Notes: generated by a model from the sequence alone, not told the origin. A stretch of DNA of 32,000 bases from Nostoc punctiforme PCC 73102 (GCF_000020025.1 NC_010628.1:4170001-4202000), one strand, 5' to 3'. Numbered from the stretch's first letter, positions 16,429 to 32,000 are shown. Program-made: numbers and translations.

Positions 16429-19400
16429 GTGGAACCCGTAGCAATTATTGGCATTGGCTGTCGTTTTCCTGGTGCTAACAACCCAGACGCTTTTTGGCAT
16501 CTTTTACGCAATGGGATTGATGCGATATCAGAAGTGCCTGTGGAACGATGGGACATTGAAAAATTTTACCATCCCCAGCCTGGGACACCAGGAAAAATGA
16601 ATACTCGTTACGGTGGATTTATTGAACAAGTAGATCGGTTTGATCCAGATTTGTTTGGTATTTCTCCTCGGGAAGCCAAGGCAATGGACCCCCAACAACG
16701 CCTGGTTTTAGAAGTTGCTTGGGAAGCCTTGGAAAATGCCGCGATTGTACCTGCTGAGATATCTGGCACCCAAACGGGGGTTGTCGTTGGCATCGGTAAC
16801 TATGACTACGGCATCTTGTCATCCAAAGACTTAGACCGAATCAGTGCCTATGATGGTACTGGCAATACTATTAGTATTGCTGCTACTCGCCTATCTTACC
16901 TATTGAACCTTAAAGGTCCGAGTTTTACTATTGAAACGGCTTGCTCGTCCTCCCTAGTTGCGCTGCACTTAGCCTGTCAAAGTTTGCGAAATCAAGAAAC
17001 CGATTTATTCGTAGTCGGAGCGGTGAGCTTGATGTTGTCTCCGCAACAGACTATTACCTACTCTAATGCTCACATGATGGCAGAAGATGGGCGTTGCAAA
17101 ACCTTTGATGCTAAAGCAGATGGTTACGTCCGTGGTGAAGGATGTGGGGTTATATTGCTCAAGCGTCTGGCGGATGCGATGAGGGATGGAGATAATATTC
17201 AGGCAATTATCAGAGGTTCAGCAGTTAACCAAGATGGACTGAGCAATGGGATGACAGCACCTAACAGCGTTGCTCAACAAGCTGTAATTCGCCAAGCGCT
17301 GCAAAATGCTAGTGTTGAACCTGCCCAAATTAGCTATATTGAGGCTCATGGCACTGGCACATCACTGGGAGATCCCATTGAAATCAGGGCTTTAAAAACC
17401 GTTCTCATGCAAGGCCGCAGTTCTGAGCAACCATGCTGGATTGGTTCAGTGAAAACCAATATTGGCCATTTGGAAGCTGCCGCGGGAATGGCTGGGTTAC
17501 TGAAAGTAGTTTTGGCGCTGAAGCATCAACAAATTCCGCCTCATTTAAATCTTCAAGAGCTAAACCCCTTAATTTCCTTTGACGACATTCCCTTTGCTAT
17601 TCCTTGCGAACTGCAACCTTGGCAGGTAAATACTGAGCCTCGCTTTGCAGGTATCAGTTCCTTTGGTTTTGGCGGTACTAATGCCCATGTCATTTTAGAA
17701 GAAGGCAGAGGACAGCAACGAGGAAATCAGAGCCAGAGAATAGATATCCTGGAACGTCCTCTACATTTACTCACTATCTCTGCAAAAACTCCTCCGGCTT
17801 TGTCTGAATTAGCACAACGTTATGCGAACTTTTTGGATGAAAATCCAGAATTAGCTTTGGCAGATATTTGCTACACAGCTAATAGAAAGCGATCGCATTT
17901 TGAACACCGTTTGGCAGTTGTAGCAGATTCTACTTCTGAGTTAAGGCAGCAACTACAACTTTTCACTGCTAGAACAGAAACAACTACAATAGTCACAGGT
18001 CAGGTACAAGGCAACAAGCGCCGCAAAATCGCCTTTTTATTTACAGGACAAGGGTCACAGTACACCGGGATGGGGCAAAAACTGTACCAAACTCAAGCTA
18101 AATTCCGGCAAATCATCGAGCAATGCGACCAAATTCTGCAACCATATCTAGACAAACCATTACTAGAAGTTTTATATCCTCAACCAGAGACAAACAGCCC
18201 CATCGACAACACCGCCTATACCCAAGTTGCTCTATTTGCCCTAGAATACGCCCTCTACCAACTGTGGCAATCCTGGGGGATTAAACCAGATGTAGTCATG
18301 GGGCATAGCGTCGGAGAATACGTCGCCGCCTGCGTCGCTGGGGTATTTAGCCTCGAAGACGGGTTGAAATTGATTGCCGCCCGTGGGAGATTAATGCAAG
18401 CCCTACCGGAAAACGGGGCGATGGTAGCAGTCATGGCCACAGCAGAGCAACTACAGCCACTGCTAGCAGCATACAAAGAAAAAGTCGCCATCGCCGCCGT
18501 CAACGGACCCCAGAGTCTGGTAATCTCTGGAGAGAAATCAGCCATCAGTGCCATCACCAGCCAACTAGAAACCGCAGGGATCAAAACCAAACAACTACAA
18601 GTATCCCACGCCTTCCACTCCCCCTTGATGCAGCCGATGTTGGCAGATTTTCTGCAAGTCGCCAATGAAATTAAGTTTGCTCCACCGCAGATGAAGCTGA
18701 TTTCTAATGTCACTGGACAACTAGCCACAATAGAAATCGCCACAGCCGAATATTGGTGTCGTCATATTCTTAATCCTGTAGAATTTGCCGCAAGTATGGC
18801 GACACTACAACAGCAGAAAGTGGCAATATGTGTAGAAATCGGTCCCAAACCGATATTGTTGGGTATGGGTCGTCAGTGCAACCCCACAGTTGAGGGATTG
18901 TGGTTGCCCAGTCTGCGCTCGGGACAAGATGATTGGCAGGTGATGTTATTATCCTTGGCACAGTTGCATTGTCATGGTGTGGCTGTGGATTGGCTCTTGT
19001 TTGATGCTGATTATTCCCGTGTGCGTTTGTATTTGCCTACTTATCCTTTCCAACGTCAGCGTTTTTGGATAGAGAGTAAAACTGACCAAAAAACCGATCG
19101 CTTAGTTCACAGCTCGATTGTAAAGCTACTACATCAAGGAAATATAGAACAATTAACCCAGCAGTTAGCCAGTCAACTATCAGCAGATGAGCAGACATAT
19201 TTGCCAAAACTGCTGGAAGTGCTGGTGAAGCAACACCAGATGGAAATCAATTCCCCAGCCATTCTCGATTGGTTTTATCAGATCGAATGGCAACCCCAAC
19301 CCCGCCGCCAGCCAGAGACACAAAAAAATGGAGCGCCTAAAAAAGTTGGTAGTTGGCTAATATTAGGCGATCGCACTGGTTTGGGACAAGCCATAGCCCA

Positions 19401-21200: not shown

Positions 21201-24200
21201 ATGAATAATATATCAAAAAAAGTAGATAAAGATAAATTAGAGCAACTGAATTCATCACAACGCATCCTTTTAGCTTTAGATGAGGCTGTCAAAAAATTAA
21301 AAGATGTCGAGCGTGCTAAAACGGAAGCGATCGCTATTGTGGGTTTGAGCTGTCGTTTTCCTGGTGGTGTCACAAATCCAGAAGAATTCTGGCAACTGCT
21401 GATCGATGGTGTGGATGCAATTACAGAAATTCCTAGCCAAAGGTGGCATCTAGAAGATTACTATCACCCCAATCCAGATACGCCAGGAAAAATGTATTCC
21501 CGCTACGGGGGATTTTTGCAGCAGGTAGACCAATTCGACGCTCAATTTTTTGGTATTTCCCCACGAGAAGCCATCAAGTTAGACCCGCAGCAACGCTTAT
21601 TGTTAGAGGTAACTTGGGAAGCCTTAGAAAATGCTGGGATAATTCCTCAAGAACAAGTAAATGGGCAAACAGGCGTGTTTATTGGCATTACGACCAACGA
21701 CTACGCCAGACTCATTACTCCCGGTGGTGACTTGAGCCAAATCGATCCCTATTATCTCACTGGTAATCCCTTGAATGCCGTAGCGGGTCGCTTGTCTTAT
21801 ACTCTGGGATTGCATGGCCCTTGTATGGCTGTAGATACAGCTTGCTCATCCTCCTTAGTAGCCGTGCATCTAGCTTGTCAAAGCTTACGGAACCAAGAGT
21901 GCGATCGCGCTTTAGCTGGTGGCGTCAACTTAATTTTATCTCCAGAAAATAATATCGGCTTGTCAAAAGCCAAAGTCTTGTCTGCTGATGGACGGTGCAA
22001 AACCTTTGACAGCGAAGCTGATGGTATTACCAGGGGAGAGGGTTGTGGCGTTTTGGTACTCAAACGCCTCTCAGATGCGGTGGCTGATGGCGATCGCATC
22101 TTAGCCTTGATTCGTGGTTCCGCAGTCAATCAAGATGGTGCTAGTAGTGGGTTTACTGTACCTAACCGCAACGCCCAAGAAAACTTGATTCGCCAGACTT
22201 TAACCAGGGCTAATGTCAAACCAGAAGAGGTAGATTATGTAGAAGCTCACGGCACTGGTACTTCCCTCGGCGATCCCATTGAAGTCAGAGCTTTAGCTGC
22301 TGTTTTAGGTGCTGGACGCACAGCAGAAAATCCTCTGAAAATTGGGGCGGTGAAAACAAATATTGGGCATTTAGAATCAGCCGCAGGTATTGCCGGGATG
22401 ATTAAAGTCATACTCTCCCTACAACATCAGCAAATTCCGCCCCATTTGCATTTAAAGCAACTTAACACCCACATTAACTGGGACGAATTACCTGTATCAG
22501 TAACCACGCAAGCTACACCCTGGCCAGTGGGAAATAAACAACGCCTTGCTGGAGTCAGTTCCTTTGGCGCGAGTGGTACTAATGCTCACGTAATTTTAGC
22601 AGAAGCACCAACTAATAATTCTCTATCCAAACCGCAAAATGCCAAATTTATTGAGCGCCCTCAACATTTGCTGAATCTCTCAGCAAAAACTGAGAAGGCT
22701 TTGCGGGAATTGGTGCAACGTTATATTAATTATTTACAGTCCAATCCCGAAAAATCTTTAGCAGATATTTGCTTTACTGCTAATACTGGGCGATCGCATT
22801 GGAAATATCGTCTGAGCATCTTGGCTGACTCTACAATGTCAGCATTGGCGCAGTTAACTACCTGGGCATTGGGTCAGGATCTTCCGGGAGTAGTTTTGGG
22901 CGAGGCAGAGTCAACTAGTAAAAAAATCGCCTTCCTATTTACAGGTCAAGGGTCACAGTACGCCGGGATGGGACAAAAACTGTACCAAACCCAAGCCAAA
23001 TTCCGGCAAATCATCGACCAATGTGACCAAATTCTGCAACCATATTTAGACAAACCATTACTAGAAGTTTTATATCCGCAACCAGACACAAACAGCCCCA
23101 TAGACAACACCGCCTATACCCAAGTTGCTCTATTTGCCCTAGAATACGCTCTCTACCAACTTTGGCAATCCTGGGGGATCAAACCAGATGTAGTCATGGG
23201 GCATAGCGTCGGAGAATACGTCGCCGCCTGCGTGGCTGGGGTATTTAGCCTCCAAGACGGGTTGAAATTGATTGCCGCCCGTGGTCAATTAATGCAAGCC
23301 CTACCAGAAAACGGGGCAATGGTAGCAGTGATGACCACAGCAGAGCAACTACAGCCACTGCTAGCAGCATACAAAGAGAAAGTCGCCATTGCCGCCGTCA
23401 ACGCTCCCCAGAGTCTGGTAATCTCTGGAGAGAAATCAGCCATCAGTGCCATCACCAGCCAACTAGAAACCGCAGGGATCAAAACCAAACCACTGCAAGT
23501 ATCCCACGCCTTCCACTCTCCCTTGATGCAGCCGATGTTGGCAGATTTTCTGCAAGTCGCCAGCCAAATTAAGTTTTCCCCACCGCAGCTCAAGCTGATT
23601 TCTAATGTCACAGGAGAACTAGCCACAACAGAAATCGCCACAGCCGAATATTGGTGTCGTCATATTCTTAATCCTGTAGAATTTGCCGCAAGTATGGTGA
23701 CACTACAACAGCAGAAAGTGGCAATATGTGTAGAAATTGGTCCCAAACCGATATTGTTGGGTATGGGTCGTCAGTGCAACCCCACAGTTGAGGGATTGTG
23801 GTTGCCTTCTTTGCGATCAAGACAAGATGATTGGCAGGTGATGTTATTATCCTTGGCACAGTTACATTGTCATGGTGTGGCTGTGGATTGGCTGTTGTTT
23901 GATGCTGATTATTCCCGTGTCCGTTTGCATTTGCCTACTTATCCTTTCCAACGTCAGCGTTTTTGGATAGAGACGGTTGATGGGCAGCGAGATCAACCTG
24001 CGCTGATATCCAGAAATGGCAAAGGTAGAAAAATTATCCATCCTCTGTTGGGACAACGTTTGCCCCTCGCAACTAGCCAATCAATTCATTTTGAGTCTCA
24101 AATTAGTGCTGCGTCACCGACTTTTCTCCAAGACCATTGCATCTATGATGCGACTATCTTACCTGCCACTGCTTACATAGAAATGGCTTTGTCCGCAGGG

Positions 24201-27200: not shown

Positions 27201-27833
27201 AGTCGGGAACAGGCTCGTTGGGCGGCGCAAGGTGTACAGCCGATTCCTTTAGAGCCAGGGTTGCAGATATTAGCAAAAGTGGTTCAGCAAAATCTCGCTC
27301 AAGTCGGGGTGTTACCAGTGGACTGGTCTAAATTTACAGCCCAATTCCCCAGCGATGTCGAACTACCCTTCTTAGCAGAATTTACTAACGCAATATCAAA
27401 AGTTACACCGCAGGTAGCCGAACTCCGGCAACAACTAGAAGCAGCTGCGCCAAAACAACGCCCAATTTTATTAATGAATTATGTGCGATCGCAAATTGCC
27501 AAAGTGCTGAATTTAACATCAACAGAGGAAATTGATCCCAAAGAAGGTTTTCTGCAATTGGGTATGGACTCGTTGATGGCGGTGGAATTAAGAAACCGTC
27601 TACAAAGTAGTTTAGGCTGTTCTGTCCCAGCATCGTTGATTTTTGATTATCCCACAGTGGATGCTCTAGTAAGTTATCTCATTCAGGAATTATGGACAGA
27701 TCGACCGCCTGAACCATCAACAGAAAATTCTCCCCCACCAGCACAGGGGATAGCTGAGTCAGAACTGGAGGAATTATCGGATAGCGAAGCCGAAGCATTG
27801 TTGTTGAGCAAGTTAGACAACTTGAAATATTAA
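21201..27833 (+). CDS. Type I PKS module 2: KS-AT-DH-ER-KR-ACP (fully reducing)
   Basis: N-terminal docking helix LNSSQRILLALDEAVKKLKDVE. KS about 21315-22610: Cys 21843-21845, His 22248-22250. AT about 22923-23800: Ser 23205-23207, HAFH 23505-23516. DH about 24030-24900: HPLLGQRLP with His 24039-24041, plus YGEQFQ and LLDACFQ. ER about 25620-26590: HAAAGGVGQAAVQLA near 26070-26115. KR about 26641-27200: Tyr 27081-27083. ACP Ser is at 27570-27572. The C-terminal docking tail is LSDSEAEALLLSKLDNLKY. Confidence 0.95.
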   Translation: MNNISKKVDKDKLEQLNSSQRILLALDEAVKKLKDVERAKTEAIAIVGLSCRFPGGVTNPEEFWQLLIDGVDAITEIPSQRWHLEDYYHPNPDTPGKMYSRYGGFLQQVDQFDAQFFGISPREAIKLDPQQRLLLEVTWEALENAGIIPQEQVNGQTGVFIGITTNDYARLITPGGDLSQIDPYYLTGNPLNAVAGRLSYTLGLHGPCMAVDTACSSSLVAVHLACQSLRNQECDRALAGGVNLILSPENNIGLSKAKVLSADGRCKTFDSEADGITRGEGCGVLVLKRLSDAVADGDRILALIRGSAVNQDGASSGFTVPNRNAQENLIRQTLTRANVKPEEVDYVEAHGTGTSLGDPIEVRALAAVLGAGRTAENPLKIGAVKTNIGHLESAAGIAGMIKVILSLQHQQIPPHLHLKQLNTHINWDELPVSVTTQATPWPVGNKQRLAGVSSFGASGTNAHVILAEAPTNNSLSKPQNAKFIERPQHLLNLSAKTEKALRELVQRYINYLQSNPEKSLADICFTANTGRSHWKYRLSILADSTMSALAQLTTWALGQDLPGVVLGEAESTSKKIAFLFTGQGSQYAGMGQKLYQTQAKFRQIIDQCDQILQPYLDKPLLEVLYPQPDTNSPIDNTAYTQVALFALEYALYQLWQSWGIKPDVVMGHSVGEYVAACVAGVFSLQDGLKLIAARGQLMQALPENGAMVAVMTTAEQLQPLLAAYKEKVAIAAVNAPQSLVISGEKSAISAITSQLETAGIKTKPLQVSHAFHSPLMQPMLADFLQVASQIKFSPPQLKLISNVTGELATTEIATAEYWCRHILNPVEFAASMVTLQQQKVAICVEIGPKPILLGMGRQCNPTVEGLWLPSLRSRQDDWQVMLLSLAQLHCHGVAVDWLLFDADYSRVRLHLPTYPFQRQRFWIETVDGQRDQPALISRNGKGRKIIHPLLGQRLPLATSQSIHFESQISAASPTFLQDHCIYDATILPATAYIEMALSAGAIVFKTDRVQLEAVSIQQALVFSGDEPKTLQVVLTPENTRVYSWQVLSYLEDESNVDNWTLHASGKVGLGNAETHSAAVDLAGLLSEDSTEISVKEYYQSLHDRGFDYGEQFQAIARLWQGETQAVGSVRLPLPLTADASKYLLHPVLLDACFQILGTNFPDNGQQDVYLPVGVEQLQVYQRAGNSLWSRVEKIEFQDVKQQHLQADLSLVNDAGELVAKITGLSFRRITQKAFQRILAKVLPAPQTTDNWLYQIAWQRQNLEPASSNKQPSSWLIFADQGGLGQKLAQLLTAAGDRCIMVSAGAVYQQLQADRYQINLAHPEDFGRLIQDNPCQGIVHLWSCDATTEPQLTSCGSVLFLLQAIYNAKLPALPSLYLVTKGTQTVGGQLTPLQVQSATLWGLGRVIALEHPELHCVRLDINPDAPEDHIPSVAQELLVPSREDQIAYRQGLRYVARLVRSDVAREADVNSQAFQLQISEYGVFENLTLAAMQRRQPGPGEVEIAVRAVGLNFRDVLNALGMLREYTEQMGITDAKELPFGGECSGIVVAVGENVSHLQVGDAVIAAQTIGSFASFVIVRSEFVVRKPENLTFEEAATIPTAFLTAYYGLYQQAQLKSGERILIHAAAGGVGQAAVQLAQRVGAEVLATASPRKWEHLRATGVKQVMNSRSLEFADQIREITSGQGIDVVLNSLNGEYIPKSLEVLSDRGRFIEIGKIGIWDAEQVKDSRPDVGYIPFDLLDISLENPSLIGEMLGELMAEFQQGSLKPLPVSVFSIQDVANAFRYMAQSKHIGKVVVSIPQRQMPKETTIQADSSYLITGGLGALGLQVAQWLVEQGAQNLVLMGRRGVSPENQPAIEQLEQAGARVLVVTADVSQQEDVSQMLATLNASMPPLRGIIHAAGLLADGMLLRQTWENFELVMAPKVAGAWNLHTLTKELDLDFFVCFSSVSALLGSPGQGNYAAANAFMDALAHHRQALGLPGSSINWGPWADAGMAAALSSREQARWAAQGVQPIPLEPGLQILAKVVQQNLAQVGVLPVDWSKFTAQFPSDVELPFLAEFTNAISKVTPQVAELRQQLEAAAPKQRPILLMNYVRSQIAKVLNLTSTEEIDPKEGFLQLGMDSLMAVELRNRLQSSLGCSVPASLIFDYPTVDALVSYLIQELWTDRPPEPSTENSPPPAQGIAESELEELSDSEAEALLLSKLDNLKY
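22923..23972 (+). repeat. AT-domain repeat copy 2, near-identical to 18025-19074
   Basis: See copy 1. The paired antisense track ORFs 18255..18743 with 23285..23641, and 18770..18961 with 23668..23859, are by-products of this duplication. Confidence 0.9.
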
Positions 27834-27878: not shown

Positions 27879-30200
27879 ATGAGTTCAGAACAAGCTAATT
27901 CCCTATCTCCTATCAAACGGGCGCTGATGGCGCTAGAGAAGATGCAGGCCCAGCTTGATGCTGTAGAATATGCCAAAAAAGAACCGATCGCGATCGTGGG
28001 CATGGGTTGCCGATTCCCTGGTGGTGCTGATAACCCGGAGGCATTTTGGCAGTTGTTGCGTGATGGTGTTGATGCAATTATCGATATTCCAGGCGATCGC
28101 TGGGATACAGCAGCTTACTACGACCCCAATCCAGATACACCAGGAAAAATTTACACCCGTAAAGGAGGCTGTTTAAGCGATCGCTTGGATAGCTTTGAAC
28201 CCCAGTTTTTTGGGATTTCTGCCACAGAAGCCAAAAGCCTCGATCCCCAACAACGCTTGTTACTAGAGGTTGCTTGGGAAGCCCTGGAAAATGCCAATCA
28301 ATCACCAGAAAAGTTGTTTAACAGCCTCACAGGTGTATTTTTAGGCATCTGTAGCAATGACTATAACAACATGATTTGGCAGACTGGCGGCGCTACTCAA
28401 GTAGATGCTTTTTGTGCCACTGGCAATGCTTTAAGTGTAGCGGCTGGACGCTTATCTTATTTTTTGGGGTTAAAAGGGCCGAGTTTAGCTGTTGATACTG
28501 CTTGTTCTTCCTCATTAGTGGCACTACATTTGGCCTGTCAACATCTGCGGAATCAAGAGTGTCATCTGGCATTAGTGGGTGGAGTCCACTTACTGCTATC
28601 ACCAGAAACCAGTGTGGCTTTTGCCAGAACCAAAATGTTAGATGCTGATGGATACTGTAAAACCTTTGATGCTGACGCTAATGGCTATGTGCGTGGTGAA
28701 GGTTGTGGCGTCATCGTCCTCAAACGCTTGTCTGATGCTGTTGCTCACAAAGATAAAATTCTCGCTGTAATTCGCGGTTCCGCAGTCAACCACAATGGTC
28801 GCAGTAGTAGTTTAATTGCCCCTAACGGCCCGTCTCAGCAAGCCTTGATTCGTCAAGCCTTGGAGAATGCTAGTGTTGAACCCGCTGCTGTGAGTTACAT
28901 AGAAGTGCAAGGTACCAGCACATCCTTAGGACAACCAATTGAAGTGGAAGCGTTAGCAGCAGTATATGGCAAAAATCGCCCCCTAGACAATCCCTTGCTG
29001 ATTGGGTCGGTGAAAACTAATATTGGTCATCTGGAAGCAGCTTCCGGTATTGCAAGTTTAATGAAAATAGTACTTGCCATGCAACATGGCCAAATACCAC
29101 CCCACCTGCACTTGCATCAGCCCAATCCTTATATTGACTGGGAGAAATTACCAGTCAAAGTACCAACACAGAATATCCCTTGGGACAAAGGAGATCGGCA
29201 ACGCTTGGCTGGAATCAGTGCTTTTAGCTTTAGTGGGACTAATGCTCATATAGTGTTGGAAGAATACACAAATGCGGAAAATCCACAAGGGTTATCACGT
29301 TCTCTGCATATATTAGCCCTGTCCGCCAAGACACAAGAGTCACTAGTGCAGTTAACAGCAGCATACGAAAAGTACTTAGTTGGCAATCCAGAGTTGAATT
29401 TGGCAGATATTTGTTTTACAGCTAATACTAAGCGATCACATTTTCCCTACCGTCTAGCTGTAACTGCTGCTTCCACCTTGGAACTGGCAGGAAAACTAGG
29501 GGCTTTTAGAGACGGGAAAGCAGTAGAAGGGTTAAGTCAAGGTAAAGCCACTACTAATTTCCCAGAAGAACTACAAATACCCGATCTCAACTCCAAATCA
29601 ATAAATTGGCAAAGCATTTTGGAAAACGTTACTCAATCATATATCAAAGGTGTGACAATAGACTGGGCGGCTTTGTATCCAGATGATTTGTGCGCTCGCC
29701 TCCAATTACCAAATTATCCTTGGCAACGGCAACGCTATTGGATTGAGTCTGGAACACAGATCAATGCAGACTTGTCTATTATTGACTCGATCAAGCAGGG
29801 AAATGTGCATCAGCTAACTCAACAGTTGTCAGCAGCAGAAAACCTATCTGCCGATGAATGGGAATTATTGTCGCAACTGCTAACAAAATTAACAGATCCA
29901 TCGCCATCTATACAGCAATTGCAACGCCAATCGCTGACACTCACAGATATTCAAAACTGGCTAGTCTCGCAAATAGCCAAAGAAATGGGAGTCAAACCAG
30001 ATGATATAGAGGTTCAAGCACCTTTTGATAGTTACGGATTAGATTCCATGTTAGCAATTAGTATTGCCAATGCCGGACAAAAATATTTAGGAATCCAGGT
30101 TTCTCCATTGATGTTAGTACATTATCCGACAATTGCCGTACTTTCGCAGCACCTAGCTACAGAATTGGCAGCATCTGAAACAGAAGCTTTTGAAATTTGA
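27879..30200 (+). CDS. Degenerate PKS module 3: KS(Cys-Gln-His)-[AT-less linker remnant]-dimerization element-ACP
   Basis: N-terminal docking helix LSPIKRALMALEKMQAQLDAVE. The KS retains Cys (28503-28505, DTACSSS) and the second His (29028-29030). The EAHGTGT motif, however, reads EVQGTST, with Gln codon CAA at 28908-28910. The KS-AT linker (SLHILALSAKT...FTANTKRSHFPYRLAV) runs directly into the post-AT linker (VTIDWAALY...LPNYPWQRQRYWIE). About 20 aa replace the whole AT core. There is no KR. ACP Ser is at 30045-30047 (GLDS). Confidence 0.9.
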   Translation: MSSEQANSLSPIKRALMALEKMQAQLDAVEYAKKEPIAIVGMGCRFPGGADNPEAFWQLLRDGVDAIIDIPGDRWDTAAYYDPNPDTPGKIYTRKGGCLSDRLDSFEPQFFGISATEAKSLDPQQRLLLEVAWEALENANQSPEKLFNSLTGVFLGICSNDYNNMIWQTGGATQVDAFCATGNALSVAAGRLSYFLGLKGPSLAVDTACSSSLVALHLACQHLRNQECHLALVGGVHLLLSPETSVAFARTKMLDADGYCKTFDADANGYVRGEGCGVIVLKRLSDAVAHKDKILAVIRGSAVNHNGRSSSLIAPNGPSQQALIRQALENASVEPAAVSYIEVQGTSTSLGQPIEVEALAAVYGKNRPLDNPLLIGSVKTNIGHLEAASGIASLMKIVLAMQHGQIPPHLHLHQPNPYIDWEKLPVKVPTQNIPWDKGDRQRLAGISAFSFSGTNAHIVLEEYTNAENPQGLSRSLHILALSAKTQESLVQLTAAYEKYLVGNPELNLADICFTANTKRSHFPYRLAVTAASTLELAGKLGAFRDGKAVEGLSQGKATTNFPEELQIPDLNSKSINWQSILENVTQSYIKGVTIDWAALYPDDLCARLQLPNYPWQRQRYWIESGTQINADLSIIDSIKQGNVHQLTQQLSAAENLSADEWELLSQLLTKLTDPSPSIQQLQRQSLTLTDIQNWLVSQIAKEMGVKPDDIEVQAPFDSYGLDSMLAISIANAGQKYLGIQVSPLMLVHYPTIAVLSQHLATELAASETEAFEI
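27981..29265 (+). other. KS domain of module 3 lacking the HGTGT histidine, predicted non-elongating (KS0-like)
   Basis: Aligned with KS1 IEAHGTGTSLGDPIE and KS2 VEAHGTGTSLGDPIE, KS3 reads IEVQGTSTSLGQPIE. Confidence 0.8.
29299..29750 (+). other. KS-AT linker fused to the post-AT linker, with the AT catalytic core deleted
   Basis: The junction lies around 29545-29610 (GKATTNFPEELQIPDLNSKSINWQSILENVTQSYIKGVTIDW). The motifs GQGSQ, GHSxG and HAFH are all absent. Confidence 0.8.
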
Positions 30201-30242: not shown

Positions 30243-30407
30243 ATGAATATCACTGAACTTGTAGATAACTTGACTCAAAAAGGTGTAAAATTATGGGTTG
30301 ATAATGATAAACTTCGCATTCATTCACCCAAAGGAATATTAACACCAGAAATCCAAAGCGAACTGGCAAAACGCAAAGTCGAAATTCTCAGTTTACTGCA
30401 AAGAAAA
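30243..30407 (+). other. N-terminal beta-hairpin (TubC_N-like) docking domain
   Basis: MNITELVDNLTQKGVKLWVDNDKLRIHSPKGILTPEIQSELAKRKVEILSLLQRK fits the pattern GVxLWxxxxxLRxxxPxGxLTPExxxxLxxxKxExxxLL of TubC-type docking domains. Confidence 0.75.
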
Positions 30408-32000
30408 AATAACGATTCTGAATGTCCTACAGATAATGGTCAATCCCTAAGCTTACAAACTATCGGACGTTTAATTGGCGGTTTTTCCCAAAAAACCGAT
30501 ACAGATTTTAAGCCGCCTGTTACCAACCCCGAAGTTATGGCGCAAAAGCTGAAAATTACTTTTCGACCCTTGCCCAAGGGATATCAAGAAGCAGCAATTA
30601 TTAAATTTCGAGAACAATTAACGCAGAAACTCCAAGATTGTGGCGTGCAGATTGCAGATTGGGAATCAGCCACCAAAGAAATGAACTATGAAATCACCAT
30701 TCCCCTAACTAATCTGCGAAAGACAATCAAAACTAGGGTGGTGAAAGCCGATGTTAGTGCCATTATCGATGTTGAAAGAAAACCGAATTTACTCAGTAAG
30801 CTGAAGATTTGTATTGCAGAAAATCTCTATAATTTCTATTCTCAATTTATTTGGAAACATCAAAAACAGTCTGTCTCCAAAATTGCTCAATTTATCAGTT
30901 GGGCTGAAGAGAATATTCAACCAGTAGAAGACCCTACCAATACCCAAATTATTGTATTGACAGACTTGGATGAAGAATTTGTTAGCTCCAATCTCCCCTA
31001 TCAACAAAAAATCCCTATTGGCGTAAATACTCTAGTCAGAACATTTTCTGAGATTGTCATTGGTGTGTCTTCTCATCAGATTTCTATATTAAATATGAAT
31101 CTTTCCGATTCTACATTTCCTGTGGAATCAATCGATGATTTTGTTTTGAAATCTTTAACACCGAAAATATACGTACCAATTTTACCATTGCCGTTGAGCA
31201 GATTTACCATTAGTCAATATGACCCAAATCAATCCCCCTATGCAGCCCAACTGGTAAAATTTGGTCAAGAATTAGCAGCAACAGAATTGCTGCCTTCTGG
31301 ATTCAAAATTGACGATGTAATTACCAGAAAATCCCATCGAGATATTGTAGACTGGATGGCAAATGGGAGAACAGGTGTATCTTATGGTTTTGTCGCTTAT
31401 GCAGAACCTCCACAATATGTCGGGGCTGGAGAAATCTCAGCTAGTGAATGGGAGAACTTATCACCCATCCCTGGATTTAGCAACGATGAACTGCGACTAA
31501 ATCAAATTGGTAGGAGATATTTAAAAACCAAAATTGGTAATGAATATCGATACAAACAAATACCAGATATTTGGGTTGTCAGTTCTCGTTCGGGTTCCAA
31601 AAAAACAGACCTAAATTTGGAAACCGATATTCTCAGGATTGGCTTGCAAGATAGGCTGTTGTTGCAATTACCAGAAGCAATTAACCCAAGCGCTGGGGAT
31701 ATTAAACCATCATACGACTTGTACGTGATGGTGGCGATCGCCCTCTCTGCTTCCCTATATGCGCCAGAACTCATTGAAAATGGTGCGCCAATGGTTCATT
31801 TCCACGGATACCCATCTCTTGATTGGTTTAAGTCCGAGAAAGAATATTACACAGGTGTCCACAATCCCTCAGTTCCCTGTGGAACTTATGAATCAGGAGT
31901 CTTTAACTTCCTGGGGATATACGATTTAGTTCAACAACATGGCAGTGATATTGCCTTAGCTAGTCTCATTGAACCAGATCACGGTACAAATATCATCGGC
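30243..32000 (+). CDS. Partial ORF of at least 586 aa, open to the window end: TubC-N-type docking domain followed by an unassigned region
   Basis: ATG at 30243, 42 nt after the PKS3 stop, with TAAGGA upstream. I translated all 586 codons by hand and found no stop. It is absent from the ORF track, presumably because no stop codon falls within the window. After residue 55 I recognise no ANL, condensation (HHxxxDG), TE (GxSxG), FkbH or PLP motif. Confidence 0.85.
   Translation, partial: MNITELVDNLTQKGVKLWVDNDKLRIHSPKGILTPEIQSELAKRKVEILSLLQRKNNDSECPTDNGQSLSLQTIGRLIGGFSQKTDTDFKPPVTNPEVMAQKLKITFRPLPKGYQEAAIIKFREQLTQKLQDCGVQIADWESATKEMNYEITIPLTNLRKTIKTRVVKADVSAIIDVERKPNLLSKLKICIAENLYNFYSQFIWKHQKQSVSKIAQFISWAEENIQPVEDPTNTQIIVLTDLDEEFVSSNLPYQQKIPIGVNTLVRTFSEIVIGVSSHQISILNMNLSDSTFPVESIDDFVLKSLTPKIYVPILPLPLSRFTISQYDPNQSPYAAQLVKFGQELAATELLPSGFKIDDVITRKSHRDIVDWMANGRTGVSYGFVAYAEPPQYVGAGEISASEWENLSPIPGFSNDELRLNQIGRRYLKTKIGNEYRYKQIPDIWVVSSRSGSKKTDLNLETDILRIGLQDRLLLQLPEAINPSAGDIKPSYDLYVMVAIALSASLYAPELIENGAPMVHFHGYPSLDWFKSEKEYYTGVHNPSVPCGTYESGVFNFLGIYDLVQQHGSDIALASLIEPDHGTNIIG

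What the first reader, a model, noticed from the sequence alone, without database searches (positions are those of the whole stretch)
27879..30200. Terminal module decayed to KS(C-Q-H)-linkers-dimerization element-ACP
Three coherent changes convert a former KS-AT-KR-ACP module, one resembling module 1, into a likely non-elongating transfer module.
- The decarboxylation histidine of EAHGTGT is Gln (EVQGTST, CAA 28908-28910). The acyl-accepting Cys and the second His are kept.
- The AT catalytic core is cleanly excised, leaving the pre-AT and post-AT linkers fused.
- The KR is gone, yet the helix that precedes KRs in DH-less modules survives. Compare IKQGNVHQLTQQLSAAENLSADEWELL with LHQGNIEQLTQQLASQLSADEQTYL in PKS1.

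KS0 domains are well known in trans-AT systems. A KS0-ACP derived from a cis-AT module and placed at the end of an assembly line is unusual. It implies the chain is parked on ACP3 for a dedicated partner enzyme.
Basis: partly seen in the sequence, partly recalled or inferred. Interest (0 to 1): 0.8.

Follow-up and report, generated by a model that had tools for sequence, protein, structure and literature searches.

The report
Non-elongating PKS hand-off module NglF
This gene is NglF of the Nostoc punctiforme nostochloroside cluster: a ketosynthase whose decarboxylation histidine is glutamine, fused to a carrier domain, which most likely only passes the finished lipid chain to a docked release enzyme. 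That idea was published in 2024, and the design is common in cyanobacteria, not a one-off decay.

Summary
The ORF 27879-30200 encodes a KS with Cys209, Gln344 (CAA 28908-28910) and His384. It also has a KS-AT linker, a post-AT linker, a short helical segment and an ACP (Ser723). It has no AT and no KR.

The window is the ngl (pks3) cluster of Nostoc punctiforme, and the ORF is NglF. Glasser et al. (Nat Chem 2024, Supplementary Note 3) already report the H344Q C-Q-H change. They draw the protein as KS*-ACP and propose that it off-loads the chain to the docking protein NglG. The functional idea is therefore published, but it has not been tested biochemically.

The ancestry claim fails. NglF nests inside a large cyanobacterial family of about 1000-aa KS(C-Q/N-H)-dead AT-ACP proteins. 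Each is followed by an NglG homologue. Only the final AT excision is specific to the NglF lineage.

All 80 NglG loci I examined have a carrier ending in an E-x-F-E-I-type tail directly upstream. In 33 of them I detected no adjacent KS, which fits a role for the KS as an adaptor. NglG combines a beta-hairpin docking domain with a class II aldolase-like domain that keeps its His triad.

A rival remains open: the KS may still condense, with NglG then trimming one carbon.

Novelty: already known. Interest: moderate.

The parts
27879..30200 (+). NglF (Npun PKS3; ACC81788 / WP_012409764), 773 aa: KS(C-Q-H)-linker domain-post-AT linker-helical segment-ACP-tail
   Evidence: ORF list and translation. 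100% identical to P0001 from Nostoc punctiforme. Named NglF and drawn as KS*-ACP in PMC10849952.
27879..27980 (+). N-terminal region before the KS (residues 1-34), the presumed docking helix that receives NglE
   Evidence: Sequence MSSEQANSLSPIKRALMALEKMQAQLDAVEYAKK precedes the KS. dN/dS is 0.09. The docking role is inferred, not tested.
27981..29114 (+). Ketosynthase domain (residues 35-412)
   Evidence: Pfam PF00109 E 1.9e-97 and PF02801 E 2.9e-42. dN/dS is 0.095 against an 88%-identical orthologue.
28503..28505 (+). Cys209 codon (TGT), the acyl-accepting cysteine in DTACSSS
   Evidence: Cys is present in 92/92 family members.
28908..28910 (+). Gln344 codon (CAA) in place of the HGTGT histidine (EVQGTST)
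   Evidence: Gln in 88 and Asn in 4 of 92 family KS domains; His in all 7 canonical KS domains compared.
29028..29030 (+). His384 codon (CAT), the second catalytic histidine (KTNIGH)
   Evidence: His in 92/92 and the preceding Lys379 in 92/92.
29121..29519 (+). KS-to-AT linker domain (residues 415-547), retained
   Evidence: Pfam KAsynt_C_assoc, CurL-like_PKS_C and RhiE-like_linker. dN/dS is 0.11.
29559..29564 (+). Junction (Phe561|Pro562) where the AT domain is missing
   Evidence: Alignment with KS-AT0-ACP relatives and with NglD/NglE shows a single gap covering the whole AT. BLASTP coordinates agree.
29562..29753 (+). Post-AT linker (residues 562-625, ...LPNYPWQRQRYWIESG)
   Evidence: Aligns to NglD 811-880 and to the post-AT linker of relatives. 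Relaxed constraint, dN/dS 0.47.
29775..29891 (+).
   Evidence: Similar to NglD 897-935 and conserved in the KS-AT0-ACP and split KS-AT0 relatives, where it forms the C-terminus. Absent in P0009/P0010. No PDB sequence match.
29958..30155 (+). ACP domain (residues 694-759); phosphopantetheine Ser723 at 30045-30047
   Evidence: Pfam PP-binding E 1.4e-13. GLDSM motif.
30162..30197 (+). C-terminal tail ELAASETEAFEI, the presumed short linear docking motif for NglG
   Evidence: A tail of type E-x-F-E-I ends the carrier directly upstream of NglG in 80/80 loci. Binding was not tested.
30243..32000 (+). NglG (Npun_F3362, ACC81789), first 586 of 620 aa; runs off the window. Beta-hairpin docking domain (residues 3-53) + unknown domain + class II aldolase-like domain
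   Evidence: Pfam TubC_N E 1e-18. Profile against PDB: AerJ betaHD 1.1e-10, EpoB, TubC, enacyloxin Bamb_5915. AF2 model of a 97%-identical homologue has pLDDT 86. Foldseek to rhamnulose-1-P aldolase E 1.3e-4.
31794..31808 (+). NglG VHFHG (His519, His521), aligned with the two-His metal motif of class II aldolases
   Evidence: Invariant in 50 homologues. All three MAFFT modes align it with RhaD IMHCHA, FucA VVHNHA and AraD IVHTHS; the E-INS-i run that adds YgbL also aligns VVHLHS.
31971..31985 (+). NglG EPDHG (His580), aligned with the third metal histidine of class II aldolases
   Evidence: Invariant. Aligned with FucA QHHG, AraD HSHG, RhaD PFHG and YgbL ANHG.
27651..27830 (+). C-terminal 60 residues of NglE after its ACP, the presumed docking partner for the NglF N-terminus
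   Evidence: Sequence shown. The role is inferred from position only.

Best explanation
NglF is a non-elongating ketosynthase-carrier hand-off module.

1. The C20 chlorinated acyl chain built by NglD and NglE is transferred from the NglE ACP to Cys209 of NglF.
2. The decarboxylation histidine is Gln344 and no acyltransferase is present, so no malonyl unit is added.
3. The chain is passed on to the phosphopantetheine arm on Ser723 of NglF's own ACP.
4. That ACP carries a C-terminal tail (...ETEAFEI) that recruits the beta-hairpin docking domain of NglG, the next gene product.
5. The metal-dependent class II aldolase-like domain of NglG then releases the chain through C-C bond chemistry.
6. After reduction by the adjacent short-chain dehydrogenase, this gives the C21 1,2-diol lipid of the nostochlorosides.

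Shown here: domain content, the residue changes, conservation, purifying selection, gene adjacency, and the docking-domain and aldolase-like folds. Inferred: the transfer itself, tail-docking binding, and the chemistry of NglG.

NglF did not arise by recent decay of a module-1-like unit. It is the AT-less end member of an old, widespread KS(C-Q/N-H)-AT0-ACP family.
For: - **Catalytic residues.** Gln344, Cys209 and His384 are at the stated codons. Across 92 family KS domains, Cys, Lys379 and His384 are invariant, and the HGTGT His is Gln (88) or Asn (4). His is present in all 7 canonical KS domains compared.
- **No working AT in the family.** GHSxG has become G-x-(G/D/N)-x-G. Only about the first 125-155 of 319 Pfam AT positions match. 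AT is absent altogether in NglF and its clade.
- **Purifying selection.** dN/dS is 0.095 for the KS, 0.11 for the linker domain and 0.13 for the ACP plus tail.
- **Conserved pairing with NglG.** NglG follows NglF or its homologue in every locus inspected. In 80/80 NglG loci a carrier ending in an E-x-F-E-I-type tail lies directly upstream. In 33 of these I detected no adjacent KS, so NglG appears to need only an acyl-carrier, and the KS looks like an adaptor between a PKS module and that carrier.
- **NglG folds.** The N-terminus is a betaHD domain. The C-terminal domain has a class II aldolase-like fold with the His triad aligned.
- **Literature.** KS0 domains are defined by loss of the HGTGT motif (PMC5772238) and act as transfer stations (PMC10952193). 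SLiM-betaHD docking recruits stand-alone enzymes to carrier proteins (PMC9113145). The authors of the ngl cluster propose the same role (PMC10849952 Supplementary Note 3).
- **From my own knowledge.** The E. coli KAS I H298Q mutant is decarboxylation-deficient (von Wettstein-Knowles et al., FEBS J 2006). Enacyloxin release uses KS0 -> PCP -> betaHD-C domain (Masschelein et al. and Kosol et al., Nat Chem 2019).
Against: - No biochemical test exists for NglF or any relative.
- The product has 21 carbons: C16 + 2 + 2 + 1. One carbon must therefore be added after NglE, and a third condensation followed by loss of one carbon would explain this equally well (PMC10849952).
- The replacement is strictly an amide (Gln or Asn), not the mix of residues expected from simple loss of function. 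This could mean a tuned catalytic role.
- Twelve related loci have a split KS-AT0 that keeps the histidine (DAHAVGT). In the one such locus inspected in full (L092), it is the only KS, sitting between a FAAL-loaded ACP and the tailed ACP. A pure transfer step seems wasteful there.
- Malonyl could in principle be loaded in trans by the housekeeping FabD.
Confidence: 0.6

Rival explanations
1. NglF is still a condensing enzyme. The Gln/Asn-His pair replaces His-His, much as KAS III enzymes use His-Asn. ACP3 is loaded in trans with malonyl, or with a hydroxylated C2 unit. A C22 beta-keto (or 2-hydroxy-3-keto) thioester forms. NglG then removes the terminal carbon, either by OtnC-like decarboxylation of a 2-hydroxy-3-oxo acid or by oxidative C-C cleavage. 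This would give the C21 1-hydroxy-2-ketone, which the neighbouring reductases turn into the 1,2-diol.
For: [quoted passage not shown]
- Strict Gln/Asn conservation and strong purifying selection on the KS.
- Split relatives keep His. In the one such locus inspected in full (L092), that KS is the only one in the cluster.
- The class II aldolase family contains a 2-hydroxy-3-oxo-acid decarboxylase: E. coli YgbL is Pfam Aldolase_II and is annotated as putative 3-oxo-tetronate 4-phosphate decarboxylase.
- An SDR gene directly follows NglG in four of the six annotated loci (L003, L004, L005, L006, L092), and an epimerase-type reductase follows in the other two (L001, L091).
Against: - The equivalent His-to-Gln mutant of E. 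coli KAS I loses decarboxylation (my recollection of von Wettstein-Knowles 2006; not found in the library).
- Every family member lacks a working AT.
- I detected no adjacent KS in 33 of 80 NglG loci.
- No genes for hydroxymalonyl or glycolyl carrier loading were seen in the loci read.
Confidence: 0.27
2. NglF is a decaying, skipped remnant with no role. The chain passes from the NglE ACP directly to a release enzyme.
For: Loss of AT and KR-type domains, and the altered catalytic His. The post-AT linker evolves faster, with dN/dS 0.47.
Against: - The reading frame is intact.
- dN/dS is about 0.1 on the KS, the linker domain and the ACP.
- Cys, Lys, His and the ACP Ser are invariant.
- The docking tail lies on NglF, not on NglE.
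- The architecture is conserved across Nostocales at 68-98% identity.
Confidence: 0.03
3. The His-to-Gln change or the missing AT is a sequencing or assembly artefact.
For: None found.
Against: - The identical protein is on 90 independently assembled contigs.
- Ten orthologue clusters share both features.
- The published annotation of the same strain reports H->Q at residue 344.
Confidence: 0

Closest known systems
NglF itself, as annotated by Glasser, Cui, Risser, Okafor and Balskus (Nat Chem 2024, PMC10849952; Fig. 3a 'KS*', Supplementary Note 3)
   Same: Same gene, same H344Q C-Q-H observation, and the same proposal that it acts as a transthiolase handing the chain to NglG (Npun_F3362), a docking-domain protein with a putative aldolase domain.
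   Different: The paper does not describe three things: the family-wide KS(C-Q/N-H)-AT0-ACP ancestry, the conserved carrier tail, or the split and KS-less variants. Its aldolase call rests on a SWISS-MODEL template at about 14% identity. Here it rests on an AF2 model, Foldseek and an aligned His triad.
Enacyloxin chain release: Bamb_5919 KS0 -> Bamb_5917 PCP with C-terminal SLiM -> Bamb_5915 betaHD-condensation domain
   Same: A non-elongating KS moves the finished chain to a dedicated carrier. A short C-terminal motif on that carrier recruits a stand-alone release enzyme through a beta-hairpin docking domain. The docking part is covered in PMC9113145. Bamb_5915 (6cgo) matches the NglG N-terminus.
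   Different: In NglF the carrier is an ACP fused to the KS. The release enzyme is class II aldolase-like, not a condensation domain. The product is a 1,2-diol lipid with one extra carbon, not an ester. The dual transacylation itself is cited from my own knowledge (Masschelein et al. 2019).
KS0 domains of trans-AT PKSs (for example mupirocin MmpA KS0, swinholide terminal KS0, FR901464 KS0)
   Same: Cys is kept, the HGTGT motif is lost, and the chain is transferred without extension. They often pair with an ACP as a platform for a trans-acting enzyme (He et al. 2014, cited).
   Different: NglF belongs to a cis-AT-type lineage. It keeps the KS-AT linker domain and post-AT linker, and its relatives keep a dead AT.
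E. coli KAS I (FabB) H298Q mutant
   Same: The same residue change at the homologous histidine of a Cys-His-His ketosynthase. It is reported to lack decarboxylation (from memory: von Wettstein-Knowles et al., FEBS J 2006).
   Different: This is an engineered point mutant of a type II FAS enzyme, not a natural conserved variant. I could not retrieve the paper.
KSQ / chain-length-factor type decarboxylating KS
   Same: A KS-fold domain with a Gln substitution in the catalytic triad.
   Different: There Gln replaces the cysteine and decarboxylation is retained. In NglF the cysteine is intact and Gln replaces the histidine, so the consequence is the opposite.

Membership tests
Non-elongating ketosynthase (KS0) | Thiolase-fold type I PKS ketosynthase domain | tested here: met
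   Pfam PF00109 E 1.9e-97 and PF02801 E 2.9e-42.
Non-elongating ketosynthase (KS0) | Active-site cysteine retained | tested here: met
   Cys209 in DTACSSS. Present in 92/92 family members.
Non-elongating ketosynthase (KS0) | HGTGT histidine or motif lost | tested here: met
   EVQGTST with Gln344. Gln in 88 and Asn in 4 of 92 family members. Definition taken from PMC5772238.
Non-elongating ketosynthase (KS0) | No chain extension at this module, judged from the product structure | tested here: inconclusive
   The product is C21 from a C16 starter with two complete modules. The fifth carbon is unexplained (PMC10849952).
Non-elongating ketosynthase (KS0) | Transacylation without condensation shown biochemically | not testable with these tools
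   Needs an in vitro assay.
cis-AT modular PKS extension module | Integrated, catalytically competent acyltransferase | tested here: not met
   No Acyl_transf_1 hit in NglF. Relatives have GHSxG Ser replaced and a truncated AT.
SLiM / beta-hairpin docking pair | N-terminal betaHD (TubC_N) domain on the downstream protein | tested here: met
   Pfam TubC_N E 1e-18. Profile against PDB: AerJ 1.1e-10, EpoB 1.5e-8, TubC 3.8e-7. Foldseek to 8aqq, TM 0.89.
SLiM / beta-hairpin docking pair | Short conserved C-terminal motif directly after the upstream carrier domain | tested here: met
   ...SETEAFEI in NglF. An E-x-F-E-I-type tail ends the carrier upstream of NglG in 80/80 loci.
SLiM / beta-hairpin docking pair | Physical binding of the tail to the betaHD domain | not testable with these tools
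   Needs ITC or NMR, or a complex prediction that the tools do not offer.
PKS dimerization element (DE) of DH-less KR modules | Helical segment immediately N-terminal to the KR structural subdomain | tested here: inconclusive
   True for the NglD copy, which lies about 17 residues before PF21394. NglF and its whole family have the segment but no KR.
PKS dimerization element (DE) of DH-less KR modules | Homology to a structurally defined DE (spinosyn module 3, PDB 4IMP) | tested here: not met
   phmmer of the segment finds no PKS chain. The 4IMP match covers only the KR part.
Class II aldolase / adducin family (for the partner NglG) | Family fold | tested here: met
   Foldseek to L-rhamnulose-1-phosphate aldolase, E 1.3e-4, probability 1.00, TM (target) 0.45, on a model of a 97%-identical homologue with pLDDT 86.
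Class II aldolase / adducin family (for the partner NglG) | Three metal-binding histidines and the acidic catalytic residue | tested here: met
   H519/H521, H580 and D492 are invariant. H519/H521 and H580 align with the HxH and HG motifs of RhaD, FucA and AraD in three MAFFT modes. D492 aligns with the PSSE/PSSD motif in E-INS-i mode only, and YgbL was aligned in E-INS-i mode only. Ligand identities are taken from my own knowledge.
Class II aldolase / adducin family (for the partner NglG) | Significant match to the family sequence profile | tested here: not met
   No Pfam Aldolase_II hit at E <= 1. hhalign probability 1.4%. The PDB profile search finds only the docking domain.

The most novel reading that the evidence does not exclude
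The trio of atypical KS, tailed carrier and betaHD-NglG, usually with a reductase gene next (an SDR in four of the six annotated loci), is a widespread and biochemically uncharacterised chain-termination cassette. There are 291 loci in species-representative genomes, and the best 80 are all cyanobacterial. The cassette would convert an acyl thioester into a 1-hydroxy-2-ketone / 1,2-diol terminus with a net gain of one carbon.

In the most novel version, the C-Q/N-H ketosynthase is not dead. It is a tuned condensing enzyme. NglG would then be a metal-dependent class II aldolase-fold enzyme that releases the chain by decarboxylative or oxidative C-C cleavage on or next to a carrier-bound thioester. 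That would be a new PKS off-loading chemistry.
Probability: 0.25. Interest if true: 0.75.

Novelty: already known. Interest (0 to 1): 0.4.

Why it matters
How nostochlorosides gain their fifth extra carbon and their vicinal diol is an open question, stated as such by the cluster's discoverers. NglF and NglG sit exactly at that step.

The comparative result here points to a specific unit. The tailed carrier plus NglG is the constant element. A KS with an altered HGTGT site appears next to the carrier in 47 of the 80 loci, and a fused C-Q/N-H KS in 34 of them. In the fused loci whose gene content I inspected, it follows a modular PKS. This narrows the biochemical experiment to three proteins. 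It also suggests that hundreds of cyanobacterial lipid clusters share one unexplored termination chemistry.

For the finding as written, the value is lower. The KS* call and its proposed role are already in the literature.

Tried and rejected
- **NglG middle domain.** An AF2 model of residues 66-330 (pLDDT 77) gave no significant PDB match: best E 7e-3, TM below 0.35. Its fold and role remain unknown.
- **hhalign of the NglG C-domain.** Against a three-sequence class II aldolase alignment it gave 1.4% probability and a different local match. I rely instead on Foldseek and on the motif order, which was consistent in three MAFFT modes.
- **Helical segment against PDB.** phmmer gave only a chance hit to a transcription regulator. 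A longer query reached 4IMP only in its KR part.
- **Gene conversion between NglF and NglD.** I tested this as an explanation for the similar helix. blastn shows no high-identity tract there, so I rejected it.
- **RTX protein as NglO.** I first guessed that the 1693-aa RTX protein (4211-9292) was the CylK homologue NglO. The published cluster borders (Npun_R3355 thioesterase to Npun_F3373) place it outside the cluster.
- **Literature searches.** Searches for later work on NglF/NglG, for the locus tags, for this BGC family and for H298Q found nothing beyond the 2024 paper.
- **Motif census regex.** My first version missed variants such as DAVCSSS and misfiled one locus. I redid the census with a looser pattern.
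Full report
**What is there.**
The ORF at 27879-30200 (+) encodes 773 aa. Pfam finds:
- a complete ketosynthase (35-412);
- the three families that mark the KS-to-AT linker domain (415-547);
- a PP-binding domain (694-759).

It finds no acyltransferase and no ketoreductase. The two upstream PKS genes in the window score strongly for both: PKS1 is KS-AT-KR-ACP and PKS2 is KS-AT-DH-ER-KR-ACP.

Cys209 is TGT 28503-28505. Gln344 is CAA 28908-28910, in EVQGTST. His384 is CAT 29028-29030. The ACP serine is Ser723.

BLASTP against PKS1 aligns residues 35-560 with 2-529 and residues 552-672 with 811-933. About 280 AT residues are therefore missing, between ...GKATTNF and PEELQIPD.... The segment SIIDSIKQGNVHQLTQQLSAAENLSADEWELLSQLLTKL (633-671) resembles the stretch of PKS1 that lies just before its KR.

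None of this is an assembly artefact. The identical protein is recorded on 90 contigs, and ten orthologue clusters at 68-98% identity share the Gln and the AT-less layout.

**Identity and prior knowledge.**
The protein is 100% identical to ACC81788 / WP_012409764 of Nostoc punctiforme PCC 73102 / ATCC 29133. The window is the ngl (pks3) cluster, Npun_R3355 to Npun_F3373. This cluster makes the nostochlorosides, which are chlorinated glycolipids with a C21 1,2-diol tail built from palmitate plus five carbons (PMC10849952).

That paper draws this protein as KS*-ACP. [quoted passage not shown] It cites a KS0 'transthiolase' precedent (He et al. 2014). It proposes that this third PKS (NglF) off-loads the intermediate, and that termination is done by the hypothetical protein NglG (Npun_F3362). 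NglG is said to have a PKS-docking domain and perhaps an aldolase domain.

I found no later work on it.

**Ancestry.**
The database says otherwise.

Apart from the AT-less orthologues, the closest relatives are proteins of about 950-1050 aa annotated as KS-AT-ACP. They are 60-75% identical over the KS plus linker; NglD and NglE are only 54-57% identical. These relatives share four features:
- EVQGT(G/S)T, or EVNGT in a few;
- an AT whose GHSxG serine is Gly, Asp or Asn, and whose central part is deleted, so that only the first 125-155 of 319 Pfam AT positions match;
- the same helical segment;
- the same ACP and C-terminal tail.

In a neighbour-joining tree without bootstrap support, all Gln/Asn KS domains form one group separate from NglD, NglE and the other His-type KS domains. 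The AT-less proteins (P0001-P0010) form a single clade nested inside that group.

Only four strongly conserved KS positions separate the family from canonical KS domains: D306N, G311S, A343V and H344Q/N. Cys209, Lys379 and His384 are invariant in 92/92.

The order of events was therefore: AT death and HGTGT change early; AT excision late, in the NglF lineage; and loss of the helical segment later still in two relatives.

The 'dimerization element' label remains a positional guess. No solved DE is detectable by sequence, and the segment persists in a family with no KR.

**Is it functional?**
I compared NglF with the 88%-identical orthologue from Nostoc sp. ChiSLP02.

| Region | dN/dS |
|---|---|
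| KS | 0.095 |
| Linker domain | 0.11 |
| ACP plus tail | 0.13 |
| Helical segment | 0.20 |
| Post-AT linker | 0.47 |

This is not a decaying remnant.

**The partner.**
The gene starting at 30243 runs off the window. Its product begins with a TubC-type beta-hairpin docking domain. The evidence is Pfam E 1e-18 and a profile search of PDB that finds AerJ at 1.1e-10, then EpoB, TubC and the enacyloxin release enzyme Bamb_5915.

An AF2 model of a 97%-identical full-length homologue has pLDDT 86 and pTM 0.83. It matches L-rhamnulose-1-phosphate aldolase with Foldseek E 1.3e-4.

Five segments are fully or nearly invariant among 50 homologues: GRTGVS, SRSG, PSYD, VHFHG and EPDHG. VHFHG and EPDHG align with the HxH and HG motifs of E. 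coli RhaD, FucA and AraD in all three MAFFT modes. The full five-motif correspondence, in the right order and including YgbL, is seen only in E-INS-i mode. The correspondences are GNVS, P(T/S)G, PSSE/PSSD, HxH and HG. The three histidines are the family's metal ligands, from my own knowledge.

Sequence-profile methods do not detect the relationship. NglG is therefore a very divergent member at best. The middle domain (residues 66-330) has no recognisable fold.

**Context across genomes.**
NglG relatives occur at 291 places in species-representative genomes. The best 80 are all cyanobacterial. In all 80, a carrier protein or domain ending in an E-x-F-E-I-type tail lies directly upstream.

| Unit directly upstream of NglG | Loci |
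|---|---|
| Fused KS(C-Q-H)-AT0-ACP | 29 |
| Fused KS(C-N-H)-AT0-ACP | 1 |
| AT-less fused KS-ACP, like NglF | 4 |
| Complete His-type module | 1 |
| Split KS-AT0 (His kept, but DAHAVGT) plus a stand-alone tailed ACP | 12 |
| Stand-alone tailed ACP, no adjacent KS detected | 33 |

Of the stand-alone ACP loci whose neighbours I scanned, several lie in PfaD / PUFA-synthase-like contexts with a PapA-like acyltransferase or a reductase nearby.

Typical fused clusters read: desaturase, ACP, CylC-like halogenase, KS-AT-KR-ACP, KS*-AT0-ACP, NglG, then an SDR or epimerase-type reductase, then glycosyltransferases.

The AT-less type co-occurs with an extra fully reducing module in all three such loci whose gene content I inspected: N. 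punctiforme, L005 and L006.

The constant unit is the tailed carrier plus NglG. A fused C-Q/N-H KS appears in 34 of the 80 loci and, in those whose gene content I inspected, it follows a modular PKS. That is the pattern expected of an adaptor that moves a chain from a PKS ACP to the NglG-specific carrier.

**Mechanism.**
Best reading (about 0.6): the chain passes from the NglE ACP to Cys209, then to Ser723-Ppant. The tail recruits NglG. NglG performs release with C-C chemistry, and the neighbouring reductase gives the diol.

Support comes from four sources:
- the definition and behaviour of KS0 domains;
- SLiM-betaHD recruitment of stand-alone enzymes;
- the enacyloxin KS0 -> PCP -> betaHD-C precedent (my knowledge);
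- the decarboxylation-dead H298Q mutant of E. coli KAS I (my knowledge; not retrievable).

Main rival (about 0.27): the KS still condenses and NglG removes one carbon. Four observations fit this rival:
- The carbon count is 16+2+2+1.
- Only amides replace the His.
- Split relatives keep His. In the one split locus read in full (L092), that KS is the only one in the cluster.
- The class II aldolase family includes a 2-hydroxy-3-oxo-acid decarboxylase that yields a hydroxyketone. E. coli YgbL is Pfam Aldolase_II and is annotated as putative 3-oxo-tetronate 4-phosphate decarboxylase.

Against the rival: no working AT exists anywhere in the family, the H->Q mutant data point the other way, and 33 NglG loci have no adjacent KS.

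**Verdict.**
The functional interpretation is reasonable, and it is now better supported by comparative data, but it is already published for this exact gene. The evolutionary story and the claim of rarity are wrong.

What remains interesting is the unresolved chemistry of the widespread cassette of tailed carrier, NglG and a neighbouring reductase, and whether C-Q/N-H ketosynthases are truly inert in condensation.

Noticed in passing
window 18034-18984 (NglD AT) and 22932-23882 (NglE AT): The AT domains of NglD and NglE are 95% identical in protein and 94.5% in DNA. Their KS domains are only 61% identical. This suggests recent AT homogenisation (gene conversion or domain swap) within the cluster.
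   Followed up: partly
window 30438-31232 (NglG residues 66-330): This roughly 265-residue alpha/beta domain lies between the docking domain and the aldolase-like domain. It is highly conserved (for example the invariant ILNMNLSD) but has no Pfam, NCBIfam or significant PDB fold match.
   Followed up: partly
loci L037, L041, L043, L044, L046, L057, L063, L066, L070, L075, L076 and L092 (7043-9933): A 'split' variant: an 850-880 aa KS-AT0 protein ending in the helical segment, followed by a separate ~100-aa tailed ACP and then NglG. The KS keeps the histidine, but the motif reads DAHAVGT. In L092 it is the only KS in the cluster, sitting between a FAAL/ACP/CylC-like set and NglG.
   Followed up: partly
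loci L045, L052/L091, L054, L067, L079, L086 and others (33 of 80): NglG and its tailed ACP also occur with no adjacent KS detected. Of the six loci listed here, L052/L091, L054 and L086 have a PfaD-type enoyl reductase nearby, L079 and L086 a PapA/condensation-like acyltransferase, and L052/L091 a thioester-reductase-like protein. The neighbours of L045 were not scanned, and L067 gave only an unrelated HAD/AAA protein. What loads that ACP is unclear.
   Followed up: partly
loci L005 (12369-18307) and L006 (13777-21543): In the closest AT-less relatives outside N. punctiforme, the genes after NglG are an SDR, a UbiA-family transferase, a HAD hydrolase, a methyltransferase and a very large repeat protein: SBBP, cadherin and RTX repeats in L005, SBBP and DUF4114 in L006. 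The glycosyltransferase set is absent, which hints at a different head group.
   Followed up: no
window 16429 (start of NglD): The longest possible NglD ORF starts (GTG) directly at the KS core (MEPVAIIGIGCRF). It lacks the ~35-residue N-terminal region that NglE and NglF have. This is consistent with NglD taking its substrate from the free-standing ACP NglB rather than from a docked module.
   Followed up: no
window 14899-16269 (NglC): The CylC-type halogenase gave only a sub-threshold AurF hit (24 bits) in the Pfam copy used and no NCBIfam hit. Homologues in related loci carry the newer PF28091 CylC-like label.
   Followed up: no
window 2465-3589 and 4211-9292 (minus strand): An IS66-family transposase fragment and a 1693-aa protein with 36 matched RTX (HemolysinCabind) stretches lie just outside the published left border of the cluster, which is the thioesterase NglR at 10429-11274.
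   Followed up: no
proteins P0009 and P0010 (727 and 705 aa); locus L006 9360-11543: Two AT-less relatives have also lost the whole helical 'DE-like' segment, so the post-AT linker runs almost straight into the ACP. The segment is therefore dispensable for the KS-ACP unit.
   Followed up: partly
locus L082 (upstream of 10001): In one NglG locus the upstream protein is a 2095-aa module with a normal EAHGTGT ketosynthase. Its ACP ends in ...DDMEEIIL directly before NglG. A canonical module can therefore also feed NglG.
   Followed up: no
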